64,000 nt of DNA from an uncultured Bacilli bacterium (GTDB lineage Bacteria > Bacillota_I > Bacilli_A > RF39 > UBA660), in contig CALVRM010000013.1 of NCBI GenBank assembly GCA_944358695.1, positions 18,566 to 82,565 on the forward strand, read 5' to 3'. The position numbers and the translations under genes were made by a program. Each line of letters opens with the position of its first letter. The first letter of the stretch is position 1. The notes under the pieces are model-generated. The model searched no databases, had not been told where the DNA came from, and was given only the letters and a program-made list of their open reading frames with translations. Below are positions 34,722 through 55,977 of the stretch, in pieces.

Positions 34722-34755
34722 ATAGAAAAATAAGACTTTATAAATCAAAAGTCTT
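34722..34755 (-). terminator. Rho-independent terminator ending the long minus-strand array
   Basis: AATAAGACTTT-N10-AAGTCTTATT followed by TTTT on the minus strand. Confidence 0.55.
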
Positions 34756-41428: not shown

Positions 41429-41451
41429 TTCATCACCTTCATCAATCAAAT

Positions 41452-42114: not shown

Positions 42115-43899
42115 TTATAATCCGCCGCCACTACCAAAAGAGTCTAATTCTTGTTCGGTTACAACGACATTAATAGTCATTCGTTTACTACCACAAACAA
42201 ATAATGCTTCTCCTTGATTGAAACCTTTGATATTTTCTTTTTCATTGTCATTTAAATCAATTAATTTAGCTAGATCTTCAACAGCTTGTTTTTTTAATCC
42301 CATAACAAGATAATAAGAAGCGTTATCGAAAATGGCTTTTCCTTGCGTAATAACTGTTGGATCACTAAAGTCTGTTGGCTGTTGGGTAATAATTATAGTT
42401 CCTGTATTATATTTTCTAGCACGTCTTTGAACTTGAGCTAAGAAATCTGCACCTAATGTATTATTTCCAGATAATAACACATGGGCTTCATCAACCATTA
42501 ACACAGTGTTTACAGTTGGATTTAACGTTAAACTCCAAGAATACTTTAAAGTATTGAAGAACAAAGCATTTCTAATGTTAGTATCGGCGTTCATTAATTC
42601 TTTAATATTAAAGATAATAAAATTGCTTTGCGGAGAAATGGTTGTTATTCCATCAAAATAATATCTTAACTCTTTGATAATTGGTCTTAATTTTAATTCT
42701 AATTGTTCTAACATATCGCGTTCTTTATTTTGATCAGGCATGGCTGTAATTTTACCTCTAACGGTTGCATAAACATCTTTAAAAGTTGGATAATCAGCTG
42801 ATGAAAACTTACTAAAGTCAGTATCAAAGTCGATTCCAAAACGTCTATATGTTTCTTGGACCATCTCACTAAATATATTTAATACATCTTCAGTAATAGA
42901 AGGGTCATAATATTTCATAAAAGCTTTTATGGTCTGAAGGGTTCTAGTTAATACAGCATATCCCATACCTTGTCTTAACTCTTCTTCATCAGCATCGACA
43001 ATAACTTCTAAAGGGTTAATCATACCAAATTCTCCACCCTTACCTAGTTCAATATAATCACCACCATAAAGTTTGGCCATATCTTCAAACTCGCCCTCAG
43101 GGTCGATAATAACAATTTGATTATCATTTCTAATATGAGTTCGCACCATTACTTTAGCGGCTGTTGATTTACCTGATCCTGATGTACCTAAGATAATCAT
43201 GTTGGCATTATTTCGATTGTGTTCTTTTTGTTTTTGATATAAAAATTGGTTAAACAAAACAACACCACCAGAAAAGTCAACACCCAATAGAGTTGATAAG
43301 CCTGGATCCTTTATACTATCAAATATAAATGGATACATGGCAGCAATTGTCGGTGATGGAATTGGCGTTCCTATTCTATCTTCAATGTCTTGTTTTGGGA
43401 AAATTGGCAACATTGATTTTAACACTTTTTCTTGTTCAAAGCGCAAGGGAATAGCTCGCATATCCATAGCTTCCAAATAACTTTTTACTTGAAGCTTTTT
43501 AGAAGTTAATTCGTCTTGCGAGTCCGCGGTGATCATAATGTGTAATTGAAAATCCCAAATTCTCGCTTGACTTGCTGCTAATTGTTTAATAAATAGTTCT
43601 AAAGACTCATAGTCCTGTCTTAATCTTTCTTGAATTGTAACATCGTTTTCTTCTTGATACTTTGATTTTAAATCAGCAATTTCTTTATTTATCATTTTAT
43701 TGATAACATCAAAAGGCATAGGAAGATGTTTAATAACCATCTTAATGCCTGACATACTTGTTAAATTAGCTAAAAAGCCAGGAGCAACATATTTTGGATA
43801 AGAAATGGCGGTTAAAATTGTTGCATATTTATCTGATACAACAAACTCACTAGGCTTAAATTCCAAGCCTTTAGGAGCGATTTGTGTTTTAATATCCAT
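42115..43899 (-). CDS. VirB4-like conjugative ATPase, C-terminal NTPase portion of a split gene
   Basis: Walker A ILGTSGSGKSTAAK and Walker B VLMVDEAHVLL. 594 aa. Confidence 0.85.
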   Translation of the reverse strand: MDIKTQIAPKGLEFKPSEFVVSDKYATILTAISYPKYVAPGFLANLTSMSGIKMVIKHLPMPFDVINKMINKEIADLKSKYQEENDVTIQERLRQDYESLELFIKQLAASQARIWDFQLHIMITADSQDELTSKKLQVKSYLEAMDMRAIPLRFEQEKVLKSMLPIFPKQDIEDRIGTPIPSPTIAAMYPFIFDSIKDPGLSTLLGVDFSGGVVLFNQFLYQKQKEHNRNNANMIILGTSGSGKSTAAKVMVRTHIRNDNQIVIIDPEGEFEDMAKLYGGDYIELGKGGEFGMINPLEVIVDADEEELRQGMGYAVLTRTLQTIKAFMKYYDPSITEDVLNIFSEMVQETYRRFGIDFDTDFSKFSSADYPTFKDVYATVRGKITAMPDQNKERDMLEQLELKLRPIIKELRYYFDGITTISPQSNFIIFNIKELMNADTNIRNALFFNTLKYSWSLTLNPTVNTVLMVDEAHVLLSGNNTLGADFLAQVQRRARKYNTGTIIITQQPTDFSDPTVITQGKAIFDNASYYLVMGLKKQAVEDLAKLIDLNDNEKENIKGFNQGEALFVCGSKRMTINVVVTEQELDSFGSGGGL

Positions 43900-44510
43900 T
43901 AGCCGATCACCGTCCCAAATTTAGTCGTTTGTCCACCATTTAAGAAATTATCCAAAATTACTCTTAAATCTTCATTTGAGGTTTGTTTTGTTTGCAATCC
44001 GGCATTAGCAAAATTTTGGATTAATGTTCTTATCCTTTTTTGAATTTTTTCAATGTCTTTTTCTTTAAATAATAAATAAAATTCCGTATCAACAACATTA
44101 TTGTTAGTAAACATATTAGCTTTATTAATGTCATCTATTATTAATTTTCTCTTTACTGGATTTTGCTGAGAATTATAAAGCAATTGTAATTGTGATAGAT
44201 ACGCTGTAATATCCACTGGTCTATCAGCAGCAACAATCCAAAATTCATAATCAATCATATTATAAACGTTTTTTAAATTATTAATAATTGAGTATTGCAT
44301 ATCTGGTTCTAGGATAAAGATATTTCTTGGAAATATCTTTACTCCTGTAACCTTTTCATTTGTATCAAGAACAATCATACCATTAGAAATTGACTTTATT
44401 GGTACAAAATCATTGGTATATTTACTTTTTGTTTGTTTCTTTGAGGGCATCGGACACGCACCAACCTTTCCATATATATCTTTGCCTTGTAGTATAAAAG
44501 TGATATACAT
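43899..44510 (-). CDS. VirB4 N-terminal domain ORF, overlapping the next ORF through TAATG
   Basis: ...VPIKSISNGMIVLDTNEKVTGVKIFPRNIFILEPDMQ... matches the N-terminus of Gram-positive VirB4 homologs. 203 aa + 594 aa gives ~800 aa, the usual VirB4 length. Its stop TAA shares an A with the downstream ATG. Confidence 0.6.
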   Translation of the reverse strand: MYITFILQGKDIYGKVGACPMPSKKQTKSKYTNDFVPIKSISNGMIVLDTNEKVTGVKIFPRNIFILEPDMQYSIINNLKNVYNMIDYEFWIVAADRPVDITAYLSQLQLLYNSQQNPVKRKLIIDDINKANMFTNNNVVDTEFYLLFKEKDIEKIQKRIRTLIQNFANAGLQTKQTSNEDLRVILDNFLNGGQTTKFGTVIG

Positions 44511-44742
44511 CTTGTATAACTGTTTTAATATTGTGATAATTTGGTATTGGTAATACTAGAAAACCGGTAATCACGGCTGGAGCTAAATCAATTACAGCTC
44601 CCAGCAATGATGTAGGATTTATAACTACCAATAATAAAATTGTTATTCCAACTCCTGTGGCAAACATTATCAAATCGAAGGTTGTAAATACTCCGAAAAT
44701 TAAACTTGATTTTTTTGAGTTTGCTGGTATTAAATAATCCAT
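44422..44742 (-). CDS. VirB3-like small membrane protein (Tn916 Orf17/ConD-like)
   Basis: 106 aa with two TM helices, immediately upstream of VirB4. Confidence 0.5.
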   Translation of the reverse strand: MDYLIPANSKKSSLIFGVFTTFDLIMFATGVGITILLLVVINPTSLLGAVIDLAPAVITGFLVLPIPNYHNIKTVIQDVYHFYTTRQRYIWKGWCVSDALKETNKK

Positions 44743-44759: not shown

Positions 44760-46946
44760 TTATTGTCTATTTTTTGTATTAGATTTTTGGAAACCGACTC
44801 TACTTTGTCTTTCTCTATACCCTTCCTGTTCAGCGTTATCACGGAAATTATCACTAGTTTGTAGCTTGTCTGAGGCTTTTGAGGCATCAGTGGCAAGTTT
44901 TAATGCTTTTTCATAACTATCGATGACACTACCATCATATGTAGCACTATCCATATTTGTATTCTCTGAACTTTGTCTATTCATTGATTCTAAAGAGTTA
45001 GTACCGATTCCCAATTTTAAAGCCTCGTCACCAAACTTAATTTGATTTTCTTTCAAATCTTTACATGCCTTTTTATAATTATCGTAAGCTGTTTCTTGTT
45101 CACTTTCTGAAAGATTATTTTTTATTGAATCCTCATAACGTTTTTTCATAGCTTGCTCTTGAAATTGAAAATATTCTAAGTTGTGCCCTTTCCCATCCAA
45201 GTCTATTTTTCTTCCGGCGTCAGTATGAGAAAAGTCTTCATGAGCCTTTTTCATCGCCTCAAAGTCTTCAGTAGTTTGTTTGTATTTTGCAACCTTTTGA
45301 GAATCAAGAAAGGAATCATAAGGGGTTCCTGTTATGTCTGACCATCTATCTCTAGCCCTGTTACGCAAAGATTTATTGTTCCTTTCCATCATATTCCAAG
45401 CTGTACGTCCTCCTTGGGAAACACCTTTTCCTACATATCCTTTGCCTTGACTAGTAAAACCTTTAACGGTTCCACCTACAGCCCCAGAAAGCGTTCCCCC
45501 GACAATATCACGAGCACCTTTTAAAGCTCCTAAAGCGCCTTTACCTTTATATAATTGCCTAGCCATTCCAGCGGTTGAAATGGCTGAAGCTCCTAAACCA
45601 GCGGCTCCACCAATTAGTGCAGTTGCTCCAGCGTTTTGACTTATAGATTTAAATGGATTAAGTGACATTTCTCCTGATCCTTTTATACCAAAGATAGTTT
45701 CGATCATTTTTGGAACTTGTTTTGCAAATGTAAACACACCCAAAATTAAGAACACATATACAAAAACATTCATTGTAGATGCATTGGCTGAATCTTGGAC
45801 ATTCCCATTTGCATCGCTCAGATAGTAAGATATATAATTATCATCATCAGGCCAGAAGAACATTGAAGTAATCATTTCAACAATTCTTATGGCAAGGAAA
45901 ATTATTGCAATTCTTAAAAATAAGGAACCATATGTAGTTAAACAATTTTTTGCCCAATTCATTAATTTACTATTGCCGGCCGATTCTTTTGGATCAATAT
46001 ATGAAATAATGGCAATTGGAGCAACAGCTTGTAAAAATAATAATTTTATCGCCCTAGCAGCCACATCTATGCAAAACGTTATCAATAAAAAAGCTAAATA
46101 GCCACCAGTCAAAGTTGATACTAACGGATAATAAGTTATGGTGAATTCTGTATCGGCTTCTTTTTGCCAATAAAGTAATCCGCCTAATTTACTAAAATCA
46201 CGGTGATCCTCAATGTTTGCATGATTTTCATCTTCACCGCTAGGTATGTATTTGAAAATGTCTTCTAATTGTATTTTATACCTTGTGAATTCATCTCGCG
46301 CATCTTCTGCAAACGCCTCTAAGCAAGTTCGGTTTCCTTCTTCTTGAGGTTCAGCTAATACCATATCTACTGATCCTATAATATTTGAATTTTTCCCAGT
46401 GCTCTTTGGATCACACTCTGGTATTCCCACGTCTGCCTTTGTATTCAGTGTATAAAACGCACCAAAAAGCGAAAATTGCAAATCCTTGGCCATATTTGTT
46501 ATATTGTCAGTAATTGTAATTTGGTTATTTTCATTTGTACTTATATAGTCTTCAGATTCCGAACCTAATAACAAATTATTAATAACGTTACTCCCTACAA
46601 TTAATCCTTGCAATTCATAGGCTTTGTCAAATATAAATGGCGTTGCTGCTAACAAAACAATAGAAACCATAGCATTCGTGATTAATTTTCCGAAACCCTT
46701 GCCTTTTTCGCTAAAAGCATTAGGATCAACCATATATTGAATAATAGAAAAACTAACCTTAAACAGCATAAATATACCTAAGATTAAGTAAACTCGCGTT
46801 ACCAGTTCATCAAAAACACTATTATGTGAAATAAGGTCAACGTTAGCTAAATACATGAATAATTCATAAACCTTCTCAATTAGTGAATAGACAATGTTAT
46901 CTAAGAAAAAGCAAATTTGTCTTAGTTGCTGCATAATCCATGTCAT
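44760..46946 (-). CDS. VirB6-like polytopic channel protein (TcpH/ConG/Orf15-like)
   Basis: 728 aa with ≥6 TM helices in the first 400 aa and a Gly-rich then charged C-terminal domain. It lies between VirB2-like and VirB3/VirB4 genes. Confidence 0.6.
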   Translation of the reverse strand: MTWIMQQLRQICFFLDNIVYSLIEKVYELFMYLANVDLISHNSVFDELVTRVYLILGIFMLFKVSFSIIQYMVDPNAFSEKGKGFGKLITNAMVSIVLLAATPFIFDKAYELQGLIVGSNVINNLLLGSESEDYISTNENNQITITDNITNMAKDLQFSLFGAFYTLNTKADVGIPECDPKSTGKNSNIIGSVDMVLAEPQEEGNRTCLEAFAEDARDEFTRYKIQLEDIFKYIPSGEDENHANIEDHRDFSKLGGLLYWQKEADTEFTITYYPLVSTLTGGYLAFLLITFCIDVAARAIKLLFLQAVAPIAIISYIDPKESAGNSKLMNWAKNCLTTYGSLFLRIAIIFLAIRIVEMITSMFFWPDDDNYISYYLSDANGNVQDSANASTMNVFVYVFLILGVFTFAKQVPKMIETIFGIKGSGEMSLNPFKSISQNAGATALIGGAAGLGASAISTAGMARQLYKGKGALGALKGARDIVGGTLSGAVGGTVKGFTSQGKGYVGKGVSQGGRTAWNMMERNNKSLRNRARDRWSDITGTPYDSFLDSQKVAKYKQTTEDFEAMKKAHEDFSHTDAGRKIDLDGKGHNLEYFQFQEQAMKKRYEDSIKNNLSESEQETAYDNYKKACKDLKENQIKFGDEALKLGIGTNSLESMNRQSSENTNMDSATYDGSVIDSYEKALKLATDASKASDKLQTSDNFRDNAEQEGYRERQSRVGFQKSNTKNRQ

Positions 46947-46974: not shown

Positions 46975-47919
46975 TTATTTTACCACTTTACATAGTGGGT
47001 CGCCATTATCCCCAATGACAACTTTATTGTCTTCAATAACATAGTTGTTGTTGTTTACGACGTTTAAAATAAACGTTATAATTTGTGGTAATAACAGTAA
47101 AACAACTACACATATAATTCTTATTAAAGTGTGCTTCAAAGCGGACTTTACACCGTCCTCTTCGCTGCCAGTAACTGCTTTTATAAATTCTATGGCACTC
47201 ATAATAACCAAAAGAACTACTCCAACAATTGATAAAACAGTAAAAAGAGTAGACAAAAAATCTATTATCGAAGTAGGAATTAAATTACAATTTCCATATT
47301 GATAACCAGGTCCCTCGGGTTTTGCCACTCTAGCCCATTTTCTAATACCTTCTAAATCTGCTTCACCTGAATTAAGCACATTTTTTGAATTGCCGTAATC
47401 ACTAAATTGATCATCACTGTTTGAAATATCATTACCGTTTTCTACATCTGCATCATCTAAAGATAAAGGCCCTCCACTGTTAGCTTTTGCATCTTGAGTA
47501 GCTTCAGAAGAATTAGGAGTTAATGAATATGTATATTGCGTAACAGTGGTTGTGGCACCAGGTATAGTTGGTGGATGTGAGGTGCTTAGCTGTTCAATAT
47601 ATAATGTTGGACATTGATATACATTCGTACTACGCTGATGAAGTGCATCTGCTAACTTTGTAGTATTGTTTACACTACATTTATAGCCTTCACTACCATT
47701 TCCCTCAATTTCACAATCTGTAGCCAACGGACTACTTCCACTTTTAGCCACCGTTATTTTGGCTTTTAAATTATTGCTATTTATTGTAAAACTGTACGTA
47801 CATTTTGCTTTCCCTGTGTTATTAGCCACTTCTGCTTTTGCGTTATCAACATTTACAAAAAACACACTAAAAAATACTATAAAACTTATACATAATGATT
47901 TAATTAATTTCGAGTCCAT
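46975..47919 (-). CDS. Secreted Cys-containing protein with a C-terminal VirB2/TrbC-like pilin module (paralog 3)
   Basis: Signal peptide ...VDNAKA and a ~200-aa extracellular region. The C-terminal ...IVGVVLLVIMSAIEFIKAVTGSEEDGVKSALKHTLIRIICVVVLLLLPQII is homologous to the two small proteins at 48010-48872. Confidence 0.5.
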   Translation of the reverse strand: MDSKLIKSLCISFIVFFSVFFVNVDNAKAEVANNTGKAKCTYSFTINSNNLKAKITVAKSGSSPLATDCEIEGNGSEGYKCSVNNTTKLADALHQRSTNVYQCPTLYIEQLSTSHPPTIPGATTTVTQYTYSLTPNSSEATQDAKANSGGPLSLDDADVENGNDISNSDDQFSDYGNSKNVLNSGEADLEGIRKWARVAKPEGPGYQYGNCNLIPTSIIDFLSTLFTVLSIVGVVLLVIMSAIEFIKAVTGSEEDGVKSALKHTLIRIICVVVLLLLPQIITFILNVVNNNNYVIEDNKVVIGDNGDPLCKVVK

Positions 47920-47967
47920 AATAGCCGCTCCTTATTTTTTGTATTTTTCTACACATACATTATATCA

Positions 47968-48008
47968 TAAAAAAAAGCAACAATAAACGATTATTGCTGT
48001 TTTTTTTA
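47968..48008 (-). terminator. Strong, symmetric Rho-independent terminator after the pilin-like genes, followed by a TGATATAAT promoter
   Basis: A8-GCAACAATAA-ACGA-TTATTGCTG-T8. Confidence 0.65.
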
Positions 48009-48009
48009 A

Positions 48010-48453
48010 TTAATTATCGTCAGAATTATTATCTGTGCTTTCGCTGCTCTTGTTAGTATCGTCTTTATCTTCAGTAGAAACTCCATTAATGAACTTTTTA
48101 CTGCAAGCCCAGATATCACCTGTTGTTTGACCTTCAACATTTGATTGTTTTTCAACTCCAGAAACTAAGTTTACGGCAAGCTGAACGATTGTAACAATTA
48201 AGAATACTAACAAAGCAGAAATTAATCTTGAAACAAAAGATTTTTGATACTTTTTGATATCTTCTTCTTTTTTAGCTACTACGGATTTAGCAAAATCTAA
48301 CATTCCCCAAATAATTAACAATATCGGTACAACGATTTTAATAATTCGAATAATCGTTGCTACTAAATTGAATAATGTATCTGGTACTTCAATTCCGCCA
48401 CATAAAGTAGTATTGGTAGTAGTTTCTTCTAGAACATTTAATAGTTCAAACAT
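48010..48453 (-). CDS. VirB2/TrbC-like pilin-family small membrane protein (paralog 2)
   Basis: 147 aa. ...VPILLIIWGMLDFAKSVVAKKEEDIKKYQKSFVSRLISALLVFLIVTIVQL... shows clear paralogy to 48507-48872. Cys residues flank the TM hairpin. The C-terminal tail is acidic. Confidence 0.55.
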   Translation of the reverse strand: MFELLNVLEETTTNTTLCGGIEVPDTLFNLVATIIRIIKIVVPILLIIWGMLDFAKSVVAKKEEDIKKYQKSFVSRLISALLVFLIVTIVQLAVNLVSGVEKQSNVEGQTTGDIWACSKKFINGVSTEDKDDTNKSSESTDNNSDDN

Positions 48454-48506
48454 TTTATCCCTACTTTCTCTTATAATAAGTGTATTCTTAATACGTTATA
48501 ATATTT

Positions 48507-48872
48507 TTATGCGGGTTTTCCAGTAATAATTTGGCTAGCGCAATCCCAAGCATTTTGGGCTTCGTTACCTTCACCACCAACACTAGCAATGGCAGATACT
48601 ACTAGCTGAACAATTGTAACAATTAGGAAAACAACTAAAGCGGCAATAAATCTTTTCATAAAAGTTTTTTGACCAGCTTTGATTTTATCTTCGTCGCCAC
48701 CAACAGTAGCTTTGGCAAAGTCAATCATACCCCAAATAATTAATAATATTGGTACAGCGATTTGAATAATAACAACTATTAAATGAATTAAATTACCAAC
48801 ACCAGCTGGTATTCCAGAGTCAATTACAGTTGTACAATAATCTCCTGCCTCTAATAAATTTGTTAAACTCAT
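48507..48872 (-). CDS. VirB2/TrbC-like pilin-family small membrane protein (paralog 1)
   Basis: 121 aa. ...VPILLIIWGMIDFAKATVGGDEDKIKAGQKTFMKRFIAALVVFLIVTIVQL.... It has its own TTGACA-17-TATAAT promoter and strong RBS. Confidence 0.55.
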   Translation of the reverse strand: MSLTNLLEAGDYCTTVIDSGIPAGVGNLIHLIVVIIQIAVPILLIIWGMIDFAKATVGGDEDKIKAGQKTFMKRFIAALVVFLIVTIVQLVVSAIASVGGEGNEAQNAWDCASQIITGKPA

Positions 48873-48889
48873 ATAAAAATCCTCCTCTT

Positions 48890-48930
48890 TATGATTATAT
48901 AATACTTTAAAAATTGGGTTTTGTCAACAA
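48890..48930 (-). promoter_or_regulatory. Strong sigma-A-type promoter for the pilin-like genes
   Basis: Minus strand TTGACA-(17 nt)-TATTATATAAT, then RBS AAGAGGAGG. Confidence 0.55.
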
Positions 48931-48952: not shown

Positions 48953-48986
48953 CACTTTAAAAATGGACTTTTACTGAAAAAGTCCA
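48953..48986 (-). terminator. Terminator overlapping the stop codon of the TadZ-like gene
   Basis: Minus strand GGACTTTT-TCAGT-AAAAGTCC followed by ATTTTTAAAG. Confidence 0.45.
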
Positions 48987-49984
48987 AATAAACCTTTTTT
49001 CTTTTCGCTAGTTTCATCGCCTTGCCTAATAAACCCGAGTTTTACTAAAAAGGCATCTAAGGCACTATTAGAATTCTCTTGGTCATATAAAGGTGGGAGA
49101 CTAGCAAATATTTTAGTATTAGTTTCATATTCAAAATCTAAAACATCATGACTGCTTAACATACTTTTATTTAAAACAAGTTTTTTGTTTTTATATTTTT
49201 CAAAAACTCTTGGATTTCTAGCTAAAAGTTTGTTTAACTTAAGTTTTGACGGTTCTACTAAATAAATAATTTCTTGCATTAAGGCTTCAGCTTGATTACT
49301 GTTATTAATATCGACCAAAATAACATCTTTAGAATTATATTTAGAAATATAGTTTCCTAAATCGTTAGAGGCTATACTATACATATTATCATCACCAAAG
49401 TACATAAAATCACGTTTCTCAAGTTCCAAAGCAACAACACTATAATTGCGTTCCAACTGTTTTTTCATAATATAAATTAAACTAGTGGCCCCAGCTTCAT
49501 CAGTTACATTTTTAACACCGATGATTCTAGTGGTATTAGCTTCACGATATACTTCAACAGTTTGCGGTGCTCCGCCGACTGTATAACTAGGTTCATGATA
49601 AGTGTCTAGCTGATGGTACTGAGCTACATCACGGTAGCTATTAGGGTTATTATATAAATACATAACACCCTCAATGTTCATCGTAAAATTATATATACGC
49701 ATGGAAATCAAGTCAGAAAGGTATTCTGGATTGGTGACTTCTGAAGAGCCGTCTAAAAGTAATATCAAACGATCCATATCTAGCGATAAAGACAACTTTT
49801 GTAAAGTTTTGATATCTTTGTAATCTTTTAAAGCGGTGATATCCAAAATCATTCTTTGAAAAAAGAAATTTTTGAATGTTTCAATGATTTCTTCAACTGT
49901 AAATTCACCTTCTAGCTTTTTTATGATATCAATATCTAGCGTAGCTAAAGCATCGCGATATTTATTCGCAATAATTACATTCAT
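48971..49984 (-). CDS. TadZ/CpaE-like protein (receiver-like N-domain + ParA/MinD-like domain with a degenerate P-loop)
   Basis: 337 aa. The central IIGVKNVTDEAGATSLIYIM sits where the deviant Walker A (GGKGGVGKT) would be. Tad ATPase, B, C and pilin genes are adjacent. Confidence 0.4.
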   Translation of the reverse strand: MNVIIANKYRDALATLDIDIIKKLEGEFTVEEIIETFKNFFFQRMILDITALKDYKDIKTLQKLSLSLDMDRLILLLDGSSEVTNPEYLSDLISMRIYNFTMNIEGVMYLYNNPNSYRDVAQYHQLDTYHEPSYTVGGAPQTVEVYREANTTRIIGVKNVTDEAGATSLIYIMKKQLERNYSVVALELEKRDFMYFGDDNMYSIASNDLGNYISKYNSKDVILVDINNSNQAEALMQEIIYLVEPSKLKLNKLLARNPRVFEKYKNKKLVLNKSMLSSHDVLDFEYETNTKIFASLPPLYDQENSNSALDAFLVKLGFIRQGDETSEKKKGLFGLFQ

Positions 49985-49995
49985 ACCATGCCCTC

Positions 49996-50529
49996 CTAAT
50001 CATCTATTTTTTTGAAAGTCATAGTTTCACCAGTTACCGGAATTCTTAAAAGATTTCCAGCAAATTCAGAAACTACGGGAATATCTAAATACATAAAGGT
50101 TGTAACGCGATAATAGTAATAGCATTTATCTTTATTAACACAGTCCTCCATAAGATAAACGCAATACTCATATTCATTGGTTCGCGTAAGTAAAGTTCCT
50201 TCACTATCTTTACAAAATGAGCTAGTGTTTCGACCACCATTAGTGTTTAAAGGATAACCAACTCCAGTAGCATTGAAGGTTTTTCCATTACGGCTACCCC
50301 CACCTTTTAACCAATCGTTAATTTCATTTATTGTATTAGTGTTATAAGCATTGGCAGTCTCTTCAACCGTTTCAGCGGCTTCACCTTCTTTTTCGATCTC
50401 TTCAATAATCTTATTTTTTACTTTATAAGCCTTTGAATAGTCTAATGAACCGATAAAAAAGGCGATCAAAAGAATAACAAAAACTATTACAATATTGAAA
50501 AGCAAGGAATTACCTATGGCTTCATTCAT
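49996..50529 (-). CDS. TadE/TadF-like pseudopilin (paralog b)
   Basis: N-terminal MNEAIGNSLLFNIVIVFVILLIAFF single TM, then a secreted domain with the conserved YCVY Cys pattern. Paralog of 50526-51032. Confidence 0.45.
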   Translation of the reverse strand: MNEAIGNSLLFNIVIVFVILLIAFFIGSLDYSKAYKVKNKIIEEIEKEGEAAETVEETANAYNTNTINEINDWLKGGGSRNGKTFNATGVGYPLNTNGGRNTSSFCKDSEGTLLTRTNEYEYCVYLMEDCVNKDKCYYYYRVTTFMYLDIPVVSEFAGNLLRIPVTGETMTFKKIDD

Positions 50530-51032
50530 AAGCTACCACCTCTTGACGAAAAACGATAAACTCGCTCTCCCTTAGTATGAACAGGGATGTTTAAAACCCC
50601 AGCGATCGGTAAGTCCAGTGAAATATAGCTAACGACACTATAATTATAGTATCTTGGCTCATTACTTTTATTTTTTTCATTTTTAGAACTAGTATCATTT
50701 TCATAGTAATAAACACAGTAGAAATAGTTACTGTCGATATCGGCATTACCATTAGCTTTAGCTACTAACGGAGCACCATTTCGCTCACTTGGACATGCGT
50801 AACTACCACTATTACTAGGCCTTTGGAAATATCCAAAGTTTTCCAAACGCGAAGCTATTTCCGTTTTTGCAAGTTCATTATAACCTTCATATTTTTCAAT
50901 GGATGCTAAAATATATGAATTTACTTTAAATGCTTTATAATAGTTAATAGTTGCGCTTAGAATTCCAAAGACAATAACAATGAAAATAATAATAATATTA
51001 AGTGTTAATGTCGTTCCTATCCCTTCACGCAT
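50526..51032 (-). CDS. TadE/TadF-like pseudopilin (paralog a)
   Basis: MREGIGTTLTLNIIIIFIVIVFGIL N-terminal TM, then a secreted domain with CPSERNG...YFYCVYYY. Confidence 0.45.
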   Translation of the reverse strand: MREGIGTTLTLNIIIIFIVIVFGILSATINYYKAFKVNSYILASIEKYEGYNELAKTEIASRLENFGYFQRPSNSGSYACPSERNGAPLVAKANGNADIDSNYFYCVYYYENDTSSKNEKNKSNEPRYYNYSVVSYISLDLPIAGVLNIPVHTKGERVYRFSSRGGSL

Positions 51033-51357
51033 AACTTACCTCCTCGTATAATGTAGTTAGGATATTTTTTAACTACATTTTCTTATTTAGATTTTTGTTA
51101 AGAGATATCTATAAACTCATTATTTTGTAGATTGTAAAATCTATATTATAATGCCTGTAAAGATAGAGTAGTTTTAGCTACCTCCTTGAACATTTGGTTC
51201 TTATTAAAGACTAAAGCCCCTTCTTTACAAATTGGATATTAATAAGTTGTATAAAGATTAGTTTGTTATCTTTTGTCTTTTATTTTGAAACTTTTTCATA
51301 AAATTTATCAAAATCAACTTGACTTATTTATAGTTGTCTTTTTATTCAAAGAATTAA

Positions 51358-51525
51358 TTATTTAATAGTATTAACTTCTGATGTTCCTCTGTCAGAAATC
51401 GTATTAGCTTGATTTTGAACATTGTTCATAACAGTTGTAATAATAATTGTACCAATTGCTAAAACAATAGCAATAAGAACAATTGTAATTACTGTCATAT
51501 TCGCTTCACCTGCTGCCTCTTTCAT
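51358..51525 (-). CDS. Flp-like micro-pilin (55 aa; not in the ORF track; coordinates ±2)
   Basis: Minus strand: RBS AAGGAGGTG then MKEAAGEANMTVITIVLIAIVLAIGTIIITTVMNNVQNQANTISDRGTSEVNTIK. This is a short leader with Gly plus a single hydrophobic helix, as in Flp/Fap pilins. It lies directly upstream of the TadC/TadB/TadA genes. Confidence 0.55.
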   Translation of the reverse strand: MKEAAGEANMTVITIVLIAIVLAIGTIIITTVMNNVQNQANTISDRGTSEVNTIK

Positions 51526-51559
51526 TTAGTAGCACCTCCTTTACTTAAATATAATTATA

Positions 51560-52351
51560 CTACAAATTCATCATAGTCATCATCGAAAGTAGCAAGAACA
51601 TTAAAATTCCCCCACCTGTACCAAATAACATGACCATGGTTCTTTGTTCCATTCTATCAAGACGTTCTTTATATTTTTGCTCTCGTGCTTTGTTTTGCAA
51701 AGATGAAATGGTTCTTGAAAACATAAGCAATTGTTCCTGTTTATTTTCTTGGCTACCTAATCCAAGACGATATAACAAACGCATCATTCTCATTGAATCA
51801 CGAACTGGATATTCATTAGCAAAGTCCATATATGGTTGAACACTAGAGTCTCCGGCATCAATTTTTTGAATTAAACGTTTAAGCCCTGGTTTGAAGATAT
51901 CAGGCGCTGTATCAATTGATCTTGAAAGAGCCACTGGAACAGTATAATGTTGAATTAATATTTCCAAACTTTTTAAATAGTATGGAAGAGTTAAATTAAT
52001 TCGATGTAAATTATTTTTATAATATTTTTTTAAATTTTGGTAAGGCATTTTAAAGACTAAATACCCAACAATTATAGAAATTAGGAAATAGACGAAAGAC
52101 ATTTTTGACATTAAGATAAACATGACAGCAACGATGGCAATTAACCCATTTCTAATTCTTTGACTATATAATTTATTGACATCAACTTCACCATATTTAA
52201 CATTAAGCAAAAATTCATAATCATCTTCCATTAAAAATCTAAAATAAGGTTCAACATCATTAACAAATCGTTTTGAACTAAAATGATGATTGTATTCTAG
52301 GATCAGAATAAAAATTAGTCCAATGATAATAAATATTATTCCTAAATTCAT
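51560..52351 (-). CDS. TadC-like (T2SS-F domain) inner-membrane platform protein
   Basis: 263 aa with 3 TM and a cytoplasmic helical domain LTLPYYLKSLEILIQHYTVPVALSRSIDTAPDIFKPGLKRLIQKI of the GspF/TadBC type. Confidence 0.5.
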   Translation of the reverse strand: MNLGIIFIIIGLIFILILEYNHHFSSKRFVNDVEPYFRFLMEDDYEFLLNVKYGEVDVNKLYSQRIRNGLIAIVAVMFILMSKMSFVYFLISIIVGYLVFKMPYQNLKKYYKNNLHRINLTLPYYLKSLEILIQHYTVPVALSRSIDTAPDIFKPGLKRLIQKIDAGDSSVQPYMDFANEYPVRDSMRMMRLLYRLGLGSQENKQEQLLMFSRTISSLQNKAREQKYKERLDRMEQRTMVMLFGTGGGILMFLLLSMMTMMNL

Positions 52352-53253
52352 TATTCAGCCCCCACATCTTCATTATAGTATTTTTCCCCACTAAGAAGGA
52401 AATATGTATTGAGGATAACAATCCCGTGTAACAATAGTTGAACCCACCAGCTTTGAAGCATTTCAATATATGTATCGACACTGAGAAGAATTTGAACAAG
52501 CATTACCATTAAATATAAAATAATACCGAATTTTAAGAATTTTTTATGGAAATCGGCACGATCTAATCGGTCACGGTACACGCTTTCCACAAGCATATCG
52601 ATATCCAAACTCATATTCTCTAATGACTCACCAGCATCTCTTGAACCTTCATTGGTAATTTGTAAAAACAATTGGTGCATATTTCTTACAATATAATAAT
52701 CGTATTTAGCATTGAAAAAATCGATTGATTGATTAACGGTTCCATTTTCATAAGCCATGTCGATCATTGTCTTTACATCAGCTTTTACAGGATCTTCAAG
52801 AACGCCTGATTCATATACACCTTCTAAAGCTTTTACAAATGATTGTGTAGTTTGAAATTCCATGATGGTATTGGTAGTATATACTTGAATTTGTTCAAAA
52901 ATAAATTCACTATATACTCGCTTACATCTTAAGTAAGTTAAATAAGGAATAACGATTATTGAAAGAGTAGCATAAATTATCGAAATAGCAATGTTATAAA
53001 AATACAAGTATGTGAGAATGGCCGATGAAGCGGCAAAAACGATAATTTGAATAGTATACTGTCTTGCAGTATATTCTTGTCCTAACTCTTTAACTTTTTC
53101 CCTAATTACCCTAAATGAATAAGGAGTATATTTTTCGTATATATAGTTAACCTTTTGGTTAATAAATTTGTAAGCATTTGTCTTCTTATTACTGCGATAA
53201 ACAACAACAAATATGGCAATCGCAAGAACAATTAGAAATATAATAAATGTCAT
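52351..53253 (-). CDS. TadB-like (T2SS-F domain) inner-membrane platform protein
   Basis: 300 aa, TM-cytoplasmic domain-TM topology, with an ATGA overlap with the downstream gene. Confidence 0.5.
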   Translation of the reverse strand: MTFIIFLIVLAIAIFVVVYRSNKKTNAYKFINQKVNYIYEKYTPYSFRVIREKVKELGQEYTARQYTIQIIVFAASSAILTYLYFYNIAISIIYATLSIIVIPYLTYLRCKRVYSEFIFEQIQVYTTNTIMEFQTTQSFVKALEGVYESGVLEDPVKADVKTMIDMAYENGTVNQSIDFFNAKYDYYIVRNMHQLFLQITNEGSRDAGESLENMSLDIDMLVESVYRDRLDRADFHKKFLKFGIILYLMVMLVQILLSVDTYIEMLQSWWVQLLLHGIVILNTYFLLSGEKYYNEDVGAE

Positions 53254-53267
53254 ACTTTTTCCCTCCT

Positions 53268-54449
53268 TTATTCAAATAAATTTTCGGTTTTTTGAGCCGC
53301 AATACCAGGGGTTATCGTTGGCACGGGTTGTGAATATGGTACTTGACTTGTAGCCACAGGCTCGTTATTTCCTGCTGGAACAGGAATTCTTTCCCCAAGG
53401 AAACGCATTTCCTCTGGTAAGAAAACTCCTTGTACTTCTAAATAATCGATTAAATAAGGACTTGGATTATTTCGAACGACTTGTCCATCGGCACCTTTTC
53501 GATAAAGAACATTATGTTTAGCTTCGTTGTCTTTATCGACATAAAACTCCGTAACTTCTGCGATCTCACGGATAAATTTATGGGTTTCTTTATCGGTATA
53601 ACCACGAACATAAATACCGATTTGGACATATCTATGAATCGTCTTAATAAATTGATCAATATCTTGGCTTGTCTCTAACAAGCTATACATACGCTGCGGA
53701 ATAGAAGCGGCTTTATCAGCATGGATTGTTGATAAAATGTAATGTCCTGAAGATATTGAATTTCGAACCGCTAATACAGCTTCCGCACTACGAACTTCTG
53801 ATAATAAGATCCATTTAGGATTTTGACGCATACATGTAACTAATACATCAGTATATGAAGCGATGTTATTGGTTTTCATGGCAACAATATCACGGTGAGG
53901 GAAAATTTTATCTAAATGAAGTTCCAGCGTATCTTCAATTGTTATAATCTTTTCATCTTCAGCTATTTTTGAAGCCAAGTATTTTACTAATTCAGTTTTT
54001 CCTGAACCAGTTTCTCCACAAGCGATAATATTACAATGTCCTTTGACACAATACTCTAGAAACTCGTGAATATCTGGCTCAATATATTTTTCAGCAATGA
54101 TTTTTTCTTTTTGTAATCTGATTTTAGCCGGTGTTTTACGAATAACACAAGCAATTCCATTTGTCGCAATTGAATCATGAACGAAATTTAAACGAAGTTC
54201 GGCACTTTCAGCATCCAAGAAAGGGTGAGCCATATTAAAGGTTTTACCCATGACGTTAGAACACTGAAAGGCCAATTTTTCCATAAAAGCATCATTAATT
54301 GCAGAGTTTTCTATACGATAAATACCTTTATCTAAGGTTTTTAAATGAATTTGTCCTTTGTTATCGTAAGAAATATCGGTTATTTGCTCGTTTTCTAAAT
54401 ATTCTTTTAATGGACCAAAATCTATTTGGTCAAACATATTTTCATTCAT
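53268..54449 (-). CDS. CpaF/TadA-family secretion ATPase (VirB11/GspE superfamily)
   Basis: Walker A CGETGSGKTE, Asp box ...IITIEDTLEL, His box ...STIHA. 393 aa. Confidence 0.8.
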   Translation of the reverse strand: MNENMFDQIDFGPLKEYLENEQITDISYDNKGQIHLKTLDKGIYRIENSAINDAFMEKLAFQCSNVMGKTFNMAHPFLDAESAELRLNFVHDSIATNGIACVIRKTPAKIRLQKEKIIAEKYIEPDIHEFLEYCVKGHCNIIACGETGSGKTELVKYLASKIAEDEKIITIEDTLELHLDKIFPHRDIVAMKTNNIASYTDVLVTCMRQNPKWILLSEVRSAEAVLAVRNSISSGHYILSTIHADKAASIPQRMYSLLETSQDIDQFIKTIHRYVQIGIYVRGYTDKETHKFIREIAEVTEFYVDKDNEAKHNVLYRKGADGQVVRNNPSPYLIDYLEVQGVFLPEEMRFLGERIPVPAGNNEPVATSQVPYSQPVPTITPGIAAQKTENLFE

Positions 54450-54452
54450 AAA

Positions 54453-55520: not shown

Positions 55521-55547
55521 ATTTTTCTCCTCTTTTCTCTTTTATTT

Positions 55548-55964
55548 TTAATATGGTGTTTCCATTATAGCATCGATTGTATTAGTCAAATCAAATGTAA
55601 AAGTCTCATCATCTAAAAGTATTGCTGCCGGAGAGCCACTAACTCCACTAGATACCCGTAAACTAACTTTTGGCGGTGACTCATTTACATCTATTACCTC
55701 GATACGATATTTACGTCCCGTATGAGCACTTTCAGCAAATCTGCGAACAAAATTTTCAACAAATTTTTCTCTATCGATTCTAACTATTCGTGAAGTTTTA
55801 AAACTCCCATAATCTAAAGCATCCCACATAGCCGCTTCTGTGATTTCTTTTAACAATTGTGAATTGTGCTCATCAGTATTTGTAATAGTTTGAAACAATA
55901 CAATGAAGAAGATTGAGGTTACGCCTAGCATAATTACTAAAACGCCCCATAACGATTTACTCAT
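55548..55964 (-). CDS. Small N-terminally anchored protein (TadE-like pseudopilin?)
   Basis: MSKSLWGVLVIMLGVTSIFFIVLFQ TM followed by a ~110-aa domain. Confidence 0.4.
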   Translation of the reverse strand: MSKSLWGVLVIMLGVTSIFFIVLFQTITNTDEHNSQLLKEITEAAMWDALDYGSFKTSRIVRIDREKFVENFVRRFAESAHTGRKYRIEVIDVNESPPKVSLRVSSGVSGSPAAILLDDETFTFDLTNTIDAIMETPY

Positions 55965-55977
55965 TTATCATCACCCC

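What the first reader, a model, noticed from the sequence alone, without database searches (positions are those of the whole stretch)
46975..48872. Three paralogous VirB2/TrbC-like pilin-module proteins, two with a dedicated strong promoter and terminator
The ORFs at 48507-48872 and 48010-48453 share an almost identical TM-hairpin core (VPILLIIWGM(I/L)DFAK...IVTIVQL). A third copy of this module forms the C-terminus of the secreted 314-aa protein at 46975-47919. The small pair is preceded by a consensus TTGACA-17-TATAAT promoter plus a strong RBS and followed by a perfect A8-stem-T8 terminator. This is the classic arrangement for a highly expressed structural subunit. Each copy has Cys residues flanking the hairpin, hinting at a disulfide or cyclisation.
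Basis: seen in the sequence. Interest (0 to 1): 0.68.

Follow-up and report, generated by a model that had tools for sequence, protein, structure and literature searches.

The report
Pilin-like hairpin gene array beside T4SS
Three related genes encode small two-helix membrane proteins that look like the pilus or channel subunits of a DNA/protein transfer machine (type IV secretion system) in an uncultured gut Firmicute, a bacterial group usually said to lack such subunits.

Summary
On the minus strand, 48507-48872 (121 aa, "pilA") and 48010-48453 (147 aa, "pilB") are 50% identical. The C-terminus of the signal-peptide-bearing 314-aa protein (46975-47919) carries a third, diverged copy of the module. 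A TTGACA-17-TATTAT promoter with a GGAGG ribosome-binding site precedes the small pair. An A-tract/hairpin/T-tract terminator follows it, and then a TGnTATAAT promoter. This layout recurs in about 40 related species.

The best Pfam match is T4SS_pilin (PF18895), below threshold here but recorded for orthologues of the 314-aa protein. The genes sit directly upstream of VirB6-, VirB3- and VirB4-like genes. Topology is N-out/C-out, with a basic loop and a Cys in each tail in 95% of relatives. No similarity to classical VirB2/TrbC was detectable by profile comparison or Foldseek.

The module defines a large, mostly unannotated family (7,974 clusters at 50% identity). The relatives that could be placed come from small-genome uncultured gut Bacilli, where arrays hold 1-7 genes. 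The locus is chromosomal, no relaxase was found, and a Tad-like pilus operon adjoins it.

Most likely these are VirB2-equivalent subunits: two abundant core subunits plus one with a variable ectodomain. This is a new member or branch of a known kind, of moderate to high interest.

The parts
48899..48927 (-). Promoter of the small-pilin unit: -35 TTGACA (48927-48922), 17-nt spacer, -10 TATTAT (48904-48899)
   Evidence: Best site of the scan, 11 of 12. TTGACA-17-TAnnnT is conserved near the pilA start in 42 of 43 distinct related loci.
48881..48888 (-). Ribosome-binding site AGAGGAGG, 8 nt before the pilA ATG
   Evidence: Read from the sequence. GGAGG-type sites recur in orthologous loci.
48507..48872 (-). 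pilA, 121 aa: acidic N-tail with C13, helix 23-57, basic loop, helix 61-98, C-tail with W109 and C111. No signal peptide.
   Evidence: ORF. 288 homologues, none with a recorded Pfam domain. Conserved columns. AF2 model, pLDDT 77. PF18895 at 17.5 bits.
48010..48453 (-). pilB, 147 aa: same module (C18, C117) plus an acidic Ser/Thr/Asp-rich C-terminal tail
   Evidence: 50% identical to pilA, E 5e-32. PF18895 at 20.2 bits, E 6e-4. Orthologues align over about 81% of its length, so the tail varies.
47968..48008 (-). Intrinsic terminator: A8, imperfect stem of about 9 bp, 4-nt loop, T8. It starts 1 nt after the pilB stop codon.
   Evidence: RNAfold -13.4 kcal/mol, z -4.8. A hairpin plus T-run sits at the same place in 32 of 43 loci.
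47959..47967 (-). Extended -10 promoter TGATATAAT for the 314-aa gene and the downstream T4SS genes. The T-tract of the terminator lies in its spacer.
   Evidence: Read from the sequence. A TGnTATAAT-like motif lies between pilB and the large gene in 35 of 43 loci.
46975..47919 (-). 314-aa large subunit: signal peptide (aa 1-29, AKA/EV), Cys-containing ectodomain and acidic linker (aa 30-~210), C-terminal pilin module
   Evidence: ORF. Only 5 homologues besides itself. The signal peptide and module are conserved and the ectodomain is hypervariable. Median 31% identity across species, against 85% for VirB4.
46990..47289 (-). Third copy of the module within the 314-aa protein (aa 211-310; C211 and C310 invariant; helices 216-249 and 256-290)
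   Evidence: BLASTP E 2e-9 and 9e-9 to pilA and pilB. Weak NCBIfam hits to Mycoplasma ICE MMCAP2_0566, Mbov_0396 and Mbov_0395. Helices from the AF2 model.
44760..46946 (-). VirB6-like polytopic membrane protein, 728 aa (context)
   Evidence: Weak hit to the pLS20_p028 conjugation transmembrane protein. It follows the array directly in 48 of 53 loci with enough flank.
44422..44742 (-). VirB3/PrgI-like small membrane protein, 106 aa (context)
   Evidence: PrgI is its only Pfam hit, and a weak one (E 0.054). Position immediately upstream of VirB4. Conserved in 52 loci.
42115..44510 (-). VirB4 ATPase encoded as two ORFs (N-part 43899-44510, ATPase 42115-43899) (context)
   Evidence: P-loop_TraG and AAA_10. 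NF045975 Mycoplasma-ICE VirB4: E 6e-18 for the N-part and 8e-103 for the ATPase. The split is conserved in the other loci.
41452..42108 (-). NlpC/P60 cell-wall hydrolase (context)
   Evidence: PF00877, E 2e-19.
34754..37063 (-). VirD4-type coupling protein (context)
   Evidence: T4SS-DNA_transf, E 1e-59. NF045973 CD1115 family, 323 bits against a cut-off of 250.
48971..55964 (-). Adjacent Tad-like pilus operon: DUF5411, RcpC/CpaB, CpaF-type ATPase, two TadB/C-like, Flp-like 55 aa, two TadE-like, 337-aa protein (context)
   Evidence: Pfam hits. Synteny is conserved in 60 of 68 loci with enough upstream flank.

Best explanation
The three genes encode the VirB2-equivalent building blocks of a chromosomal, MPF-FATA-type (monoderm) type IV secretion system. 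They belong to a divergent Bacillota branch of the Pfam T4SS_pilin (PF18895) kind.

Shown:
- Each protein carries the same module: an acidic N-tail with a Cys, a long hydrophobic helix, a conserved basic loop (family consensus KEDEIKKGQxxFIKR), a second hydrophobic helix, and an acidic C-tail with a Cys.
- pilA and pilB are transcribed as their own unit, from a near-consensus promoter with a strong ribosome-binding site. The unit ends at an intrinsic terminator.
- The 314-aa protein and the VirB6/VirB3/VirB4 genes follow, behind an extended -10 promoter.
- The 314-aa protein has a conserved signal peptide, a hypervariable ectodomain and a conserved module.

Inferred:
- The hairpins insert with both tails outside and the basic loop in the cytoplasm.
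- A disulfide between the two tails staples each subunit.
- The VirB4/VirB6 machine extracts the abundant pilA/pilB subunits and stacks them. The product would be a short pilus or wall-spanning conduit whose lumen is lined by the basic loops.
- Subunits with ectodomains are built in rarely or at the tip. Examples are the 314-aa protein here and an amidase plus NlpC/P60 fusion in a related genome. They would supply partner recognition or wall cutting.
- The neighbouring Tad-like pilus would provide long-range attachment.
For: Paralogy.

Family assignment:
- PF18895 is the best Pfam family for both small proteins, covering model positions 6-71 of 71.
- Orthologous 324- and 307-aa proteins have recorded PF18895 hits.
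- Related array members in L083 hit PF18895. So do 8 of 60 remote relatives.
- There are weak hits to the Mycoplasma ICE proteins that sit next to VirB4, including the 'pilin-like' Mbov_0395.

Synteny:
- VirB6-like, VirB3-like and VirB4 genes follow directly after the array in 48 of 53 loci with enough downstream flank.
- Arrays occur with the T4SS but without Tad genes in L018, L052, L056, L075 and L083.

Topology and structure:
- AF2 gives a two-helix hairpin, pLDDT 77.
- Net charge is N-tail -1, loop +2 with 6 K/R, C-tail -2. 144 of 152 members have a Cys in both tails.
- Many relatives have a classical signal peptide in front of the N-tail, which puts that tail outside.

Major and minor subunit pattern:
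- The promoter, terminator and second promoter are conserved.
- Across species pilA is 59% and pilB 70% identical, against 31% for the large protein.
- The ectodomain is hypervariable between a conserved signal peptide and a conserved module.
- One related array member is a wall-hydrolase fusion.

Precedent: arrays of 2-11 divergent PF18895/VirB2-like pilins lie next to virB4 in Patescibacteria and are essential in one species (PMC12102498, PMC12857230).
Against: - The PF18895 scores of the window proteins are below Pfam's threshold, and the 314-aa protein has no Pfam hit.
- No similarity to VirB2/TrbC was detectable: hhalign probability 0.1% and 0.07%.
- Foldseek against the PDB gives only generic helical hairpins, with nothing at E <= 0.001.
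- The PF18895 name is itself computational. No member has been shown to form a filament.
- In 5 of 53 loci the small pair sits after the Tad operon and is followed by housekeeping genes, with no T4SS nearby.
- Fusion of the module to hydrolases, and its repetition inside polytopic Mycoplasma proteins, fit a plain membrane anchor equally well.
- pilA and pilB lack signal peptides.
Confidence: 0.55

Rival explanations
1. The module is a membrane-resident T4SS component, not a polymerising pilin. The hairpins would stay in the cytoplasmic membrane as a channel or stator ring, or as a docking anchor that tethers ectodomains (adhesin-like domains, wall hydrolases) to the VirB6/VirB4 complex. The conserved basic loop would contact a cytoplasmic partner such as VirB4.
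For: - The module forms the C-terminal anchor of an Amidase_3 plus NlpC/P60 protein in L083.
- It anchors many large Cys-rich ectodomain proteins.
- It matches two separate regions of the polytopic Mycoplasma ICE proteins MMCAP2_0566 and Mbov_0396.
- The loop is the most conserved part of the module.
- Monoderm T4SSs are generally described as lacking pili (PMC9905601, PMC12857230).
- No fold match to solved pilins was found.
Against: - A dedicated near-consensus promoter and a terminator that sets the two bare subunits apart from the machinery genes suggest a large molar excess. That is typical of polymer subunits.
- The conserved extracellular Cys pair and acidic tails point to exposed, stabilised termini.
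- The major/minor subunit pattern and the fast evolution of the ectodomains resemble pilus systems.
Confidence: 0.25
2. The small pair belongs functionally to the neighbouring Tad-like pilus machine, for example as platform or anchoring subunits. It would lie next to the T4SS only by ancestry of the gene order.
For: - The last gene of the Tad-like operon (the 337-aa protein) precedes the array in 60 of 68 loci with enough upstream flank.
- In L028 and L055 the Tad operon and the small genes are followed directly by housekeeping genes: RF-2 and FtsEX, or cardiolipin synthase and ABC transporters.
- L030, L041 and L050 also lack an adjacent VirB6-like gene.
Against: - The only family-level similarities are to T4SS proteins: PF18895 and the Mycoplasma ICE proteins. 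Those ICEs are described with a minimal VirB/VirD4-type gene set. That they carry no Tad genes is prior knowledge, not tested here.
- The paralogous large proteins always lie with VirB6.
- Five loci have the array and T4SS without Tad genes upstream.
- hhalign gives no relation to the locus's Flp (3%) or TadE (1.5%) proteins.
- The pair is transcriptionally separated from the Tad operon by a terminator-like hairpin at 48986-48964 and its own promoter.
Confidence: 0.1
3. The genes encode unrelated small membrane proteins, such as a holin, a bacteriocin immunity protein or a VirB3-like factor. The resemblance to pilins would then come only from hydrophobic composition.
For: - All Pfam hits are sub-threshold. 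They sit among other weak hits to unrelated multi-pass membrane families.
- The Mycoplasma field calls the analogous small ICE proteins VirB3-like (PMC12857230).
Against: - Conserved non-hydrophobic motifs (C...IP, P41, G48, D51, the KEDEIKKGQ..F..R loop, W109/C111) define a real family of 7,974 clusters.
- No holin or other phage family of known function matches.
- A separate VirB3/PrgI-like gene exists in the locus, and hhalign to it gives 0.7%.
- The position within the secretion locus is strict across about 80 species.
Confidence: 0.03

Closest known systems
T4SS_pilin (Pfam PF18895) arrays next to virB4 in Patescibacteria (Southlakia epibionticum ML1, TM7x; PMC12102498, PMC12857230)
   Same: - Small two-helix proteins in tandem arrays of sequence-divergent paralogues, next to MPF-FATA-type VirB4/VirB3/VirB6 genes on the chromosome of a small-genome monoderm.
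- Usually no relaxase is detected.
- A type IV-filament pilus system is also present in the organism.
- PF18895 is the best Pfam match here.
   Different: - The host is a spore-forming Bacillota lineage (GerA operon, PBP5).
- The window's proteins fall below the PF18895 threshold, and the model misses most of the family (8 of 60).
- The two core subunits have no signal peptide.
- There is a clear division into two conserved small subunits and variable large ones, with conserved promoter/terminator punctuation.
- A VirD4-type coupling protein is present.
- The array is physically fused to a Tad-like operon.
VirB2/TrbC pilins of Gram-negative T4SSs (Pfam PF04956; the A. tumefaciens T-pilin)
   Same: - About 70-100-residue mature protein of two hydrophobic helices joined by a basic loop.
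- Gene placed just upstream of virB3/virB4/virB6.
- Needed in excess over the machine.
- In the solved pili the pilins form a helical tube together with lipids; the T-pilus lumen is electropositive (PMC9905601).
   Different: - No detectable sequence or profile similarity.
- No Foldseek match.
- pilA and pilB have no signal peptide.
- Conserved Cys in both tails.
- A much longer, helical, highly conserved loop region.
- Monoderm host.
Mycoplasma ICE proteins CDS15/CDS16 (NCBIfam Mbov_0395 'pilin-like', Mbov_0396, MMCAP2_0566), next to the VirB4 CDS17
   Same: - Weak but specific matches of pilB and of the 314-aa module to these models.
- The VirB4 here is closest to the Mycoplasma ICE VirB4 family (E 8e-103).
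- Same gene order: hairpin proteins, then VirB4.
   Different: - All scores are far below the NCBIfam cut-offs.
- The Mycoplasma proteins sit on mobile ICEs of wall-less bacteria. The literature interprets them as VirB3-like and VirB6-like.
Archaeal Ced/Ted DNA-import pili (CedA1, TedC; PMC9905601)
   Same: - Chromosomal, non-mobile T4SS-derived apparatus in a single-membrane organism.
- VirB2-like two-helix pilins encoded next to VirB6-like and VirB4-like genes.
- Some of these pilins are exported without processing.
   Different: - No sequence relation was tested or seen.
- The archaeal pilins bind tetraether or archaeal lipids.
- No Cys staple is reported.
Bartonella Trw T4SS with multiple variable VirB2/VirB5 copies
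   Same: Tandem, sequence-variable pilin paralogues, interpreted as providing variable surface or host specificity.
   Different: - Diderm host with genuine PF04956 pilins.
- Variation lies in the pilin itself, not in fused ectodomains.

Membership tests
Pfam PF18895 T4SS_pilin | Score at or above the Pfam gathering threshold (26.6 bits) | tested here: not met
   pilA scores 17.5 bits and pilB 20.2 bits. The 314-aa protein has no hit. PF18895 is nevertheless the top family for both small proteins. Orthologues of the large protein have recorded hits at E <= 1e-5. 8 of 60 remote relatives hit it, best 1.2e-6.
Pfam PF18895 T4SS_pilin | Small two-helix hydrophobic hairpin covering the whole model | tested here: met
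   Matches cover model positions 8-71 and 6-70 of 71. AF2 gives helices 23-57 and 61-98. Hydropathy agrees.
Pfam PF18895 T4SS_pilin | Encoded next to T4SS core genes (VirB4, VirB3, VirB6), often as tandem arrays | tested here: met
   A VirB6-like gene follows within 1.5 kb of the array in 48 of 53 loci. Arrays hold 1-7 module genes.
Pfam PF04956 TrbC/VirB2 | Detectable sequence or profile similarity to VirB2/TrbC | tested here: not met
   No hmmscan hit. hhalign of the family alignment and of the broad module alignment against a 30-sequence VirB2 alignment gives probability 0.1% and 0.07%. The VirB2 alignment was narrow (Neff about 3), so sensitivity was limited.
Pfam PF04956 TrbC/VirB2 | N-terminal signal peptide removed by signal peptidase | tested here: not met
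   pilA and pilB start with an acidic, non-hydrophobic tail. The 314-aa protein and many wider family members do have a classical signal peptide.
Pfam PF04956 TrbC/VirB2 | Fold match to solved conjugative pilins (TraA, VirB2, CedA1, TedC) | tested here: inconclusive
Pfam PF04956 TrbC/VirB2 | Polymerises with lipid into an extracellular helical tube | not testable with these tools
   Needs multimer modelling or experiment.
NCBIfam NF045849 Mbov_0395 pilin-like / NF045889 Mbov_0396 / NF045848 MMCAP2_0566 (Mycoplasma ICE) | Score above the curated cut-off (40, 70 and 90 bits) | tested here: not met
   Best scores are 16.1, 22.0 and 28.7 bits for the 314-aa module, and 18.2 and 19.4 bits for pilB.
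VirB3 / PrgI / TcpE-type small T4SS membrane proteins | Similarity to VirB3-type families; only small 2-TM protein directly upstream of VirB4 | tested here: not met
   There is no Pfam hit of the three proteins to PrgI or TcpE. A separate PrgI-like gene occupies the VirB3 position at 44422-44742. hhalign of the module against that family gives 0.7%.
Flp/Tad (type IVc) pilins and TadE pseudopilins | Class III signal peptide and single N-terminal hydrophobic helix; similarity to Flp or TadE | tested here: not met
   The architecture is a two-helix hairpin. hhalign to the locus's Flp and TadE families gives 3% and 1.5%.

The most novel reading that the evidence does not exclude
A chromosomally fixed T4SS-plus-Tad supersystem, with no relaxase found, operates in small-genome (1.3-1.5 Mb), spore-forming, uncultured gut Bacilli. 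It would build the first VirB2-type, disulfide-stapled conjugative-like pilus or conduit known in Bacillota, with exchangeable tip or minor subunits such as variable adhesin-like ectodomains and a wall-hydrolase fusion. Like the essential T4SS and pilin array of Patescibacteria, or the archaeal Ced/Ted importers, it would serve a host-dependent or DNA/nutrient-exchange lifestyle rather than transfer of a mobile element.
Probability: 0.25. Interest if true: 0.85.

Novelty: new member of a known kind. Interest (0 to 1): 0.6.

Why it matters
Reviews up to December 2025 state that Gram-positive T4SSs lack VirB2-type pilins. The single stated exception is Patescibacteria (PMC12857230). How DNA or protein crosses the thick wall of these bacteria is an open question.

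This locus shows that a very large family of T4SS_pilin-like hairpin proteins exists that current models mostly miss: 7,974 clusters at 50% identity. The family members that could be placed come from Bacillota gut lineages. There they sit beside VirB6/VirB3/VirB4 with a clear major/minor subunit layout.

If these proteins polymerise, monoderm conjugation-type machines can build pili or wall-spanning conduits. The conserved Cys staple, the basic loop and the ectodomain fusions give concrete handles for testing. The finding also points to a parallel between Patescibacteria and small-genome Bacilli, since both keep a chromosomal T4SS with pilin arrays.

Tried and rejected
- A profile search of PDB sequences found only a designed protein, at E 0.36.
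- hhalign of the family against VirB2 found no relation. The same holds against the locus's VirB3, Flp, TadE and VirB6 families.
- The AF2 model of the 314-aa protein had pLDDT 40.8, because only 6 sequences were available. It was unusable except for the hairpin, so no fold search was run on it.
- tblastn of pilA and of a signal-peptide-bearing relative against PLSDB plasmids and GenBank phages found no match.
- Cluster look-ups returned no names or taxonomy.
- PHROGs gave only one family of unknown function, so the holin idea was dropped.
- The relaxase/integrase hunt covered most ORFs of 100 aa or more (all in the cluster; six short flanking ORFs were left out), plus 8 kb beyond its end. It found none. 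Several large proteins without any hit (633, 538, 484 and 484 aa) could still hide one.
- Integration at the tmRNA gene was considered and rejected. The cluster lies on the smpB/RNase R side, not at the 3' end of ssrA.
- No compositional sign of recent transfer was seen.
Full report
**1. What is in the sequence**

- 48507-48872, 121 aa, called pilA here
- 48010-48453, 147 aa, called pilB here
- 46975-47919, 314 aa

pilA and pilB are 50% identical over 102 residues (E 5e-32). Both contain VPILLIIWGM(I/L)DFAK and FLIVTIVQL. Each also aligns with residues 214-285 of the 314-aa protein at 25-28% identity (E 2e-9 and 9e-9).

Hydropathy shows two long hydrophobic segments in each copy, plus an N-terminal signal-peptide-like segment in the 314-aa protein only. 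Cys residues lie just outside the hairpin in all three: C13/C111, C18/C117 and C211/C310.

**2. Regulatory signals**

- Upstream of pilA the best promoter-like site is TTGACA-17-TATTAT (48927-48899, 11 of 12).
- The number of such sites in the region is no higher than in shuffles: 15 found against 16.1 expected. The single match therefore proves nothing on its own.
- AGAGGAGG lies 8 nt before the ATG.
- One nucleotide after the pilB stop codon, an A8/stem/T8 hairpin folds at -13.4 kcal/mol (z -4.8). It has one bulge and one G-U pair.
- It is followed by TGATATAAT, an extended -10 element, and AAGGAG before the 314-aa gene.

Conservation turns these into real features. Among 43 distinct related loci with the same small-small-large gene order:
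- 42 have TTGACA-17-TAnnnT near the pilA start.
- 32 have a hairpin plus T-run right after pilB.
- 35 have a TGnTATAAT-like motif before the large gene.

In two loci, 1.2-1.8 kb insertions sit exactly at this junction. So the small pair is a separate, strongly signalled transcription unit.

**3. Context in the window**

The three genes lie in a long minus-strand block. Downstream of them:

| Coordinates | Gene | Evidence |
|---|---|---|
| 44760-46946 | VirB6-like polytopic protein | Weak hit to pLS20_p028 |
| 44422-44742 | VirB3-like protein | PrgI as only, weak Pfam hit (E 0.054) |
| 43899-44510 and 42115-43899 | VirB4 split into two ORFs | Closest to the Mycoplasma ICE VirB4 family, E 6e-18 and 8e-103 |
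| 41452-42108 | NlpC/P60 hydrolase | |
| 40760-41449 | Putative lipoprotein | Weak NCBIfam lipoprotein hits only |
| 38846-40747 | 633-aa protein, no family hit | |
| 34754-37063 | VirD4-type coupling protein | Passes the CD1115 family cut-off |

Upstream lies a Tad-like pilus operon:
- a 337-aa protein
- two TadE-like proteins
- a 55-aa Flp-like protein
- two TadB/C-like proteins
- a CpaF-type ATPase
- RcpC/CpaB and DUF5411

Further upstream come a 923-aa protein and an LPXTG protein.

The flanks are housekeeping genes:
- tmRNA, SmpB, RNase R and RmuC
- NusA
- a GerA germination operon
- ArgG/ArgH behind a T-box
- PBP5

- No relaxase or integrase was found among the ORFs scanned (all in the cluster, most of 100 aa or more elsewhere), or in the 8 kb beyond the window's end.
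- Composition shows no foreign island.
- The host is therefore a walled, spore-forming, low-GC Firmicute, and the locus is chromosomal.

**4. Relatives elsewhere**

- pilA has 288 homologues in the large protein collection. None has a recorded Pfam domain. The few that are named are 'hypothetical protein [Bacilli bacterium]'.
- A scan of one genome per species found 79 loci. They come from uncultured 'Bacilli' and 'Tenericutes' MAGs, Candidatus Coprosoma and Firmicutes CAG:822. Three are complete chromosomes of 1.34-1.54 Mb.
- A profile of the family finds 7,974 cluster representatives at 50% identity with E <= 1e-3, and 2,866 with E <= 1e-10.
- Three architectures recur among these:
  - the module alone;
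  - the module followed by a C-terminal extension;
  - an N-terminal domain followed by a C-terminal module.
- Many members have a classical signal peptide before a Cys-containing N-tail, and a CxxCF motif in the C-tail.
- Neither pilA nor such a relative matches any PLSDB plasmid or GenBank phage by tblastn.

**5. Conserved features of the module**

Within the close family, the following are invariant or nearly so: C13, P22, P41, W47, G48, D51, F52, the loop residues E61/K65/Q68/F71/R74, W109 and C111.

Across 152 diverse modules:
- 144 have a Cys in both tails.
- Median net charge is -1 for the N-tail, +2 for the loop (six K/R) and -2 for the C-tail.

AlphaFold2 on the 42-sequence alignment gives helices 23-57, 61-98 and 104-117, at mean pLDDT 77.

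By the positive-inside rule the loop is cytoplasmic and both tails are outside. The signal peptides of relatives and of the 314-aa protein place the N-tail outside, which agrees with this. An inter-tail disulfide is then plausible. This step is inference.

**6. Gene-order statistics**

- Arrays contain 1-7 module genes. The commonest form is two small genes followed by one or two large ones.
- The order below recurs across dozens of species: 923-aa protein, DUF5411, CpaB, TadA, TadB, TadC, Flp, TadE, TadE, 337-aa protein, pilA, pilB, large protein(s), VirB6, VirB3, VirB4 N-part, VirB4.
- A VirB6-like gene follows the array in 48 of 53 loci with at least 4 kb downstream.
- The last Tad gene precedes the array in 60 of 68 loci with at least 3 kb upstream.
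- Five loci (L018, L052, L056, L075, L083) have the array and T4SS without Tad genes upstream. In L083 the array follows pyruvate kinase.
- Five loci (L028, L030, L041, L050, L055) have the Tad operon and only small module genes, with no VirB6-like gene after them. In L028 and L055 housekeeping genes follow directly.
- Synteny alone therefore does not assign the small pair to one machine. None of the five Tad-only loci carries a large variant.

**7. Rates of change**

Median identity to the window across 35 species:

| Protein | Median identity |
|---|---|
| VirB4 | 85% |
| TadA | 82% |
| pilB | 70% |
| pilA | 59% |
| VirB6 | 36% |
| 314-aa protein | 31% (only half aligned) |
| 923-aa protein | 29% |

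The five homologues of the 314-aa protein share a nearly identical signal peptide and C-terminal module. C211 and C310 are invariant. Their ectodomains are unrelated. This is the pattern expected of an exposed, partner-contacting part mounted on a conserved assembly module.

In L083 one array member is Amidase_3 plus NlpC/P60 with the module at residues 508-565.

**8. Family tests**

- PF18895 (T4SS_pilin) is the top Pfam family for pilA (17.5 bits) and pilB (20.2 bits). It covers almost the full model but falls below the 26.6-bit threshold. The 314-aa protein has no hit.
- Orthologous large proteins in L004 and L005 have recorded PF18895 hits.
- L083 members hit it at E 1e-4 to 4e-4.
- Only 8 of 60 remote relatives reach E 1e-3.
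- NCBIfam gives weak hits to the Mycoplasma ICE proteins Mbov_0395 ('pilin-like'), Mbov_0396 and MMCAP2_0566.

For VirB2 itself, I verified an Agrobacterium VirB2 sequence against a Ti-type plasmid (100% identity). I collected its family and aligned 30 members. Results:
- hhalign against the pilA family gave probability 0.1%.
- hhalign against the broad module profile gave 0.07%.
- Foldseek of the model against the PDB gave no hit at E <= 0.001 and no T4SS pilin in the top 50.
- A PDB profile search found nothing relevant.
- hhalign to the locus's own families gave 0.7% (VirB3), 3% (Flp), 1.5% (TadE) and 1.3% (VirB6).
- PHROGs gave no holin or other family of known function.

**9. Literature**

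- A December 2025 review states that VirB2 and VirB5 are not found in Gram-positive T4SSs. Its one exception is Patescibacteria, where an array of six divergent VirB2-like pilins is essential (PMC12857230).
- A survey using PF04956 and PF18895 found arrays of 2-11 pilin genes near virB4 in Patescibacteria, mostly without relaxases (PMC12102498).
- The same review calls the small Mycoplasma ICE proteins VirB3-like.
- A DUF5411/CpaF/PilC operon in Clostridia was flagged as an uncharacterised secretion-related system (PMC9523054).
- No paper in the held library reports VirB2-like pilins in Bacillota.

**10. Interpretation**

Best supported (confidence 0.55): these are the VirB2-equivalent subunits of a monoderm T4SS, from a divergent Bacillota branch of the T4SS_pilin kind.
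- pilA and pilB would be abundant core subunits, with pilB carrying a short variable acidic tail.
- The 314-aa protein would be a low-abundance subunit displaying a variable ectodomain.
- The proposed mechanism is membrane insertion with tails out, a disulfide staple, VirB4/VirB6-driven extraction and stacking into a short pilus or wall-spanning conduit, and ectodomain subunits at the tip.
- This mechanism is inferred from architecture, expression signals and analogy. It is not shown.

Rivals:
- A non-polymerising membrane anchor or channel component (0.25).
- A Tad-associated function (0.10).
- An unrelated small membrane protein (0.03).

**11. Verdict**

'T4SS pilin-like' stands. 'VirB2/TrbC family member' does not, on the tests run.
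- It is a new member of a known kind: a divergent branch that current models largely miss.
- Interest is 0.6. It contradicts the usual statement that Gram-positive T4SSs lack pilin-like subunits, and it offers specific testable features. The organisms are uncultured, however, and polymerisation is unproven.

Noticed in passing
window 48971-59389 (minus strand); L004-L080: A Tad-like pilus operon is fused head-to-tail with the pilin array and the T4SS. It comprises an LPXTG protein, a 923-aa protein, DUF5411, RcpC/CpaB, a CpaF-type ATPase, two TadB/C-like proteins, a 55-aa Flp-like protein, two TadE-like proteins and a 337-aa protein. The order is conserved across dozens of species. A DUF5411/CpaF/PilC operon was flagged as an uncharacterised system in Clostridia (PMC9523054).
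   Followed up: partly
window 42115-44510 (minus strand): VirB4 is encoded as two ORFs: an N-terminal TraC-like part of about 180-200 aa and a 594-aa ATPase. The VirB3-like ORF overlaps the start of the N-part. The split is conserved in about 50 related loci, so it is not a sequencing frameshift.
   Followed up: partly
window 34754-64000 and L085 1-8084: The roughly 30-kb T4SS/Tad cluster has a VirD4-type coupling protein but no recognisable relaxase or integrase. Housekeeping genes border it (RmuC, RNase R, SmpB and tmRNA on one side; UDG, a LytTR regulator and YefM/YoeB on the other). Several large proteins (633, 538, 484 and 484 aa) have no family hit.
   Followed up: partly
L083 14062-15813: A 583-aa array member combines Amidase_3 and NlpC/P60 wall-hydrolase domains with a C-terminal pilin module (residues 508-565). 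The L083 array has seven module genes and follows pyruvate kinase, with no Tad genes nearby.
   Followed up: partly
L028 11005-15371; L055 11326-18370: In five species the Tad operon and two or three small module genes are followed directly by housekeeping genes (RF-2, YitT and FtsEX; or cardiolipin synthase and ABC transporters) instead of the T4SS. Whether the T4SS lies elsewhere in those genomes could not be checked.
   Followed up: partly
L012 10767-12019; L021 6379-8205: Insertions of 1.2 and 1.8 kb sit exactly between the pilB terminator and the large-subunit gene. Their content was not identified.
   Followed up: no
window 61138-63997 and L085 6630-9525: Two adjacent 484-aa proteins lie at the upstream end of the cluster. 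One has a weak DUF5409 hit. They may be paralogues. Their function is unknown.
   Followed up: no
window 20323-20545 (+): A T-box leader (129 bits) lies upstream of argininosuccinate synthase and lyase (20667-23277).
   Followed up: no
window 29266-29630 (-): A tmRNA gene with tag peptide AQLNITGKSEKGAFGSANLAFA lies next to smpB and RNase R.
   Followed up: no
window 9983-13720 (+): A GerA/GerC/spore-permease germination operon is present. Related genomes are only 1.3-1.5 Mb, so this small-genome lineage appears to form spores. A RhuM-family gene lies at 7466-8497.
   Followed up: no
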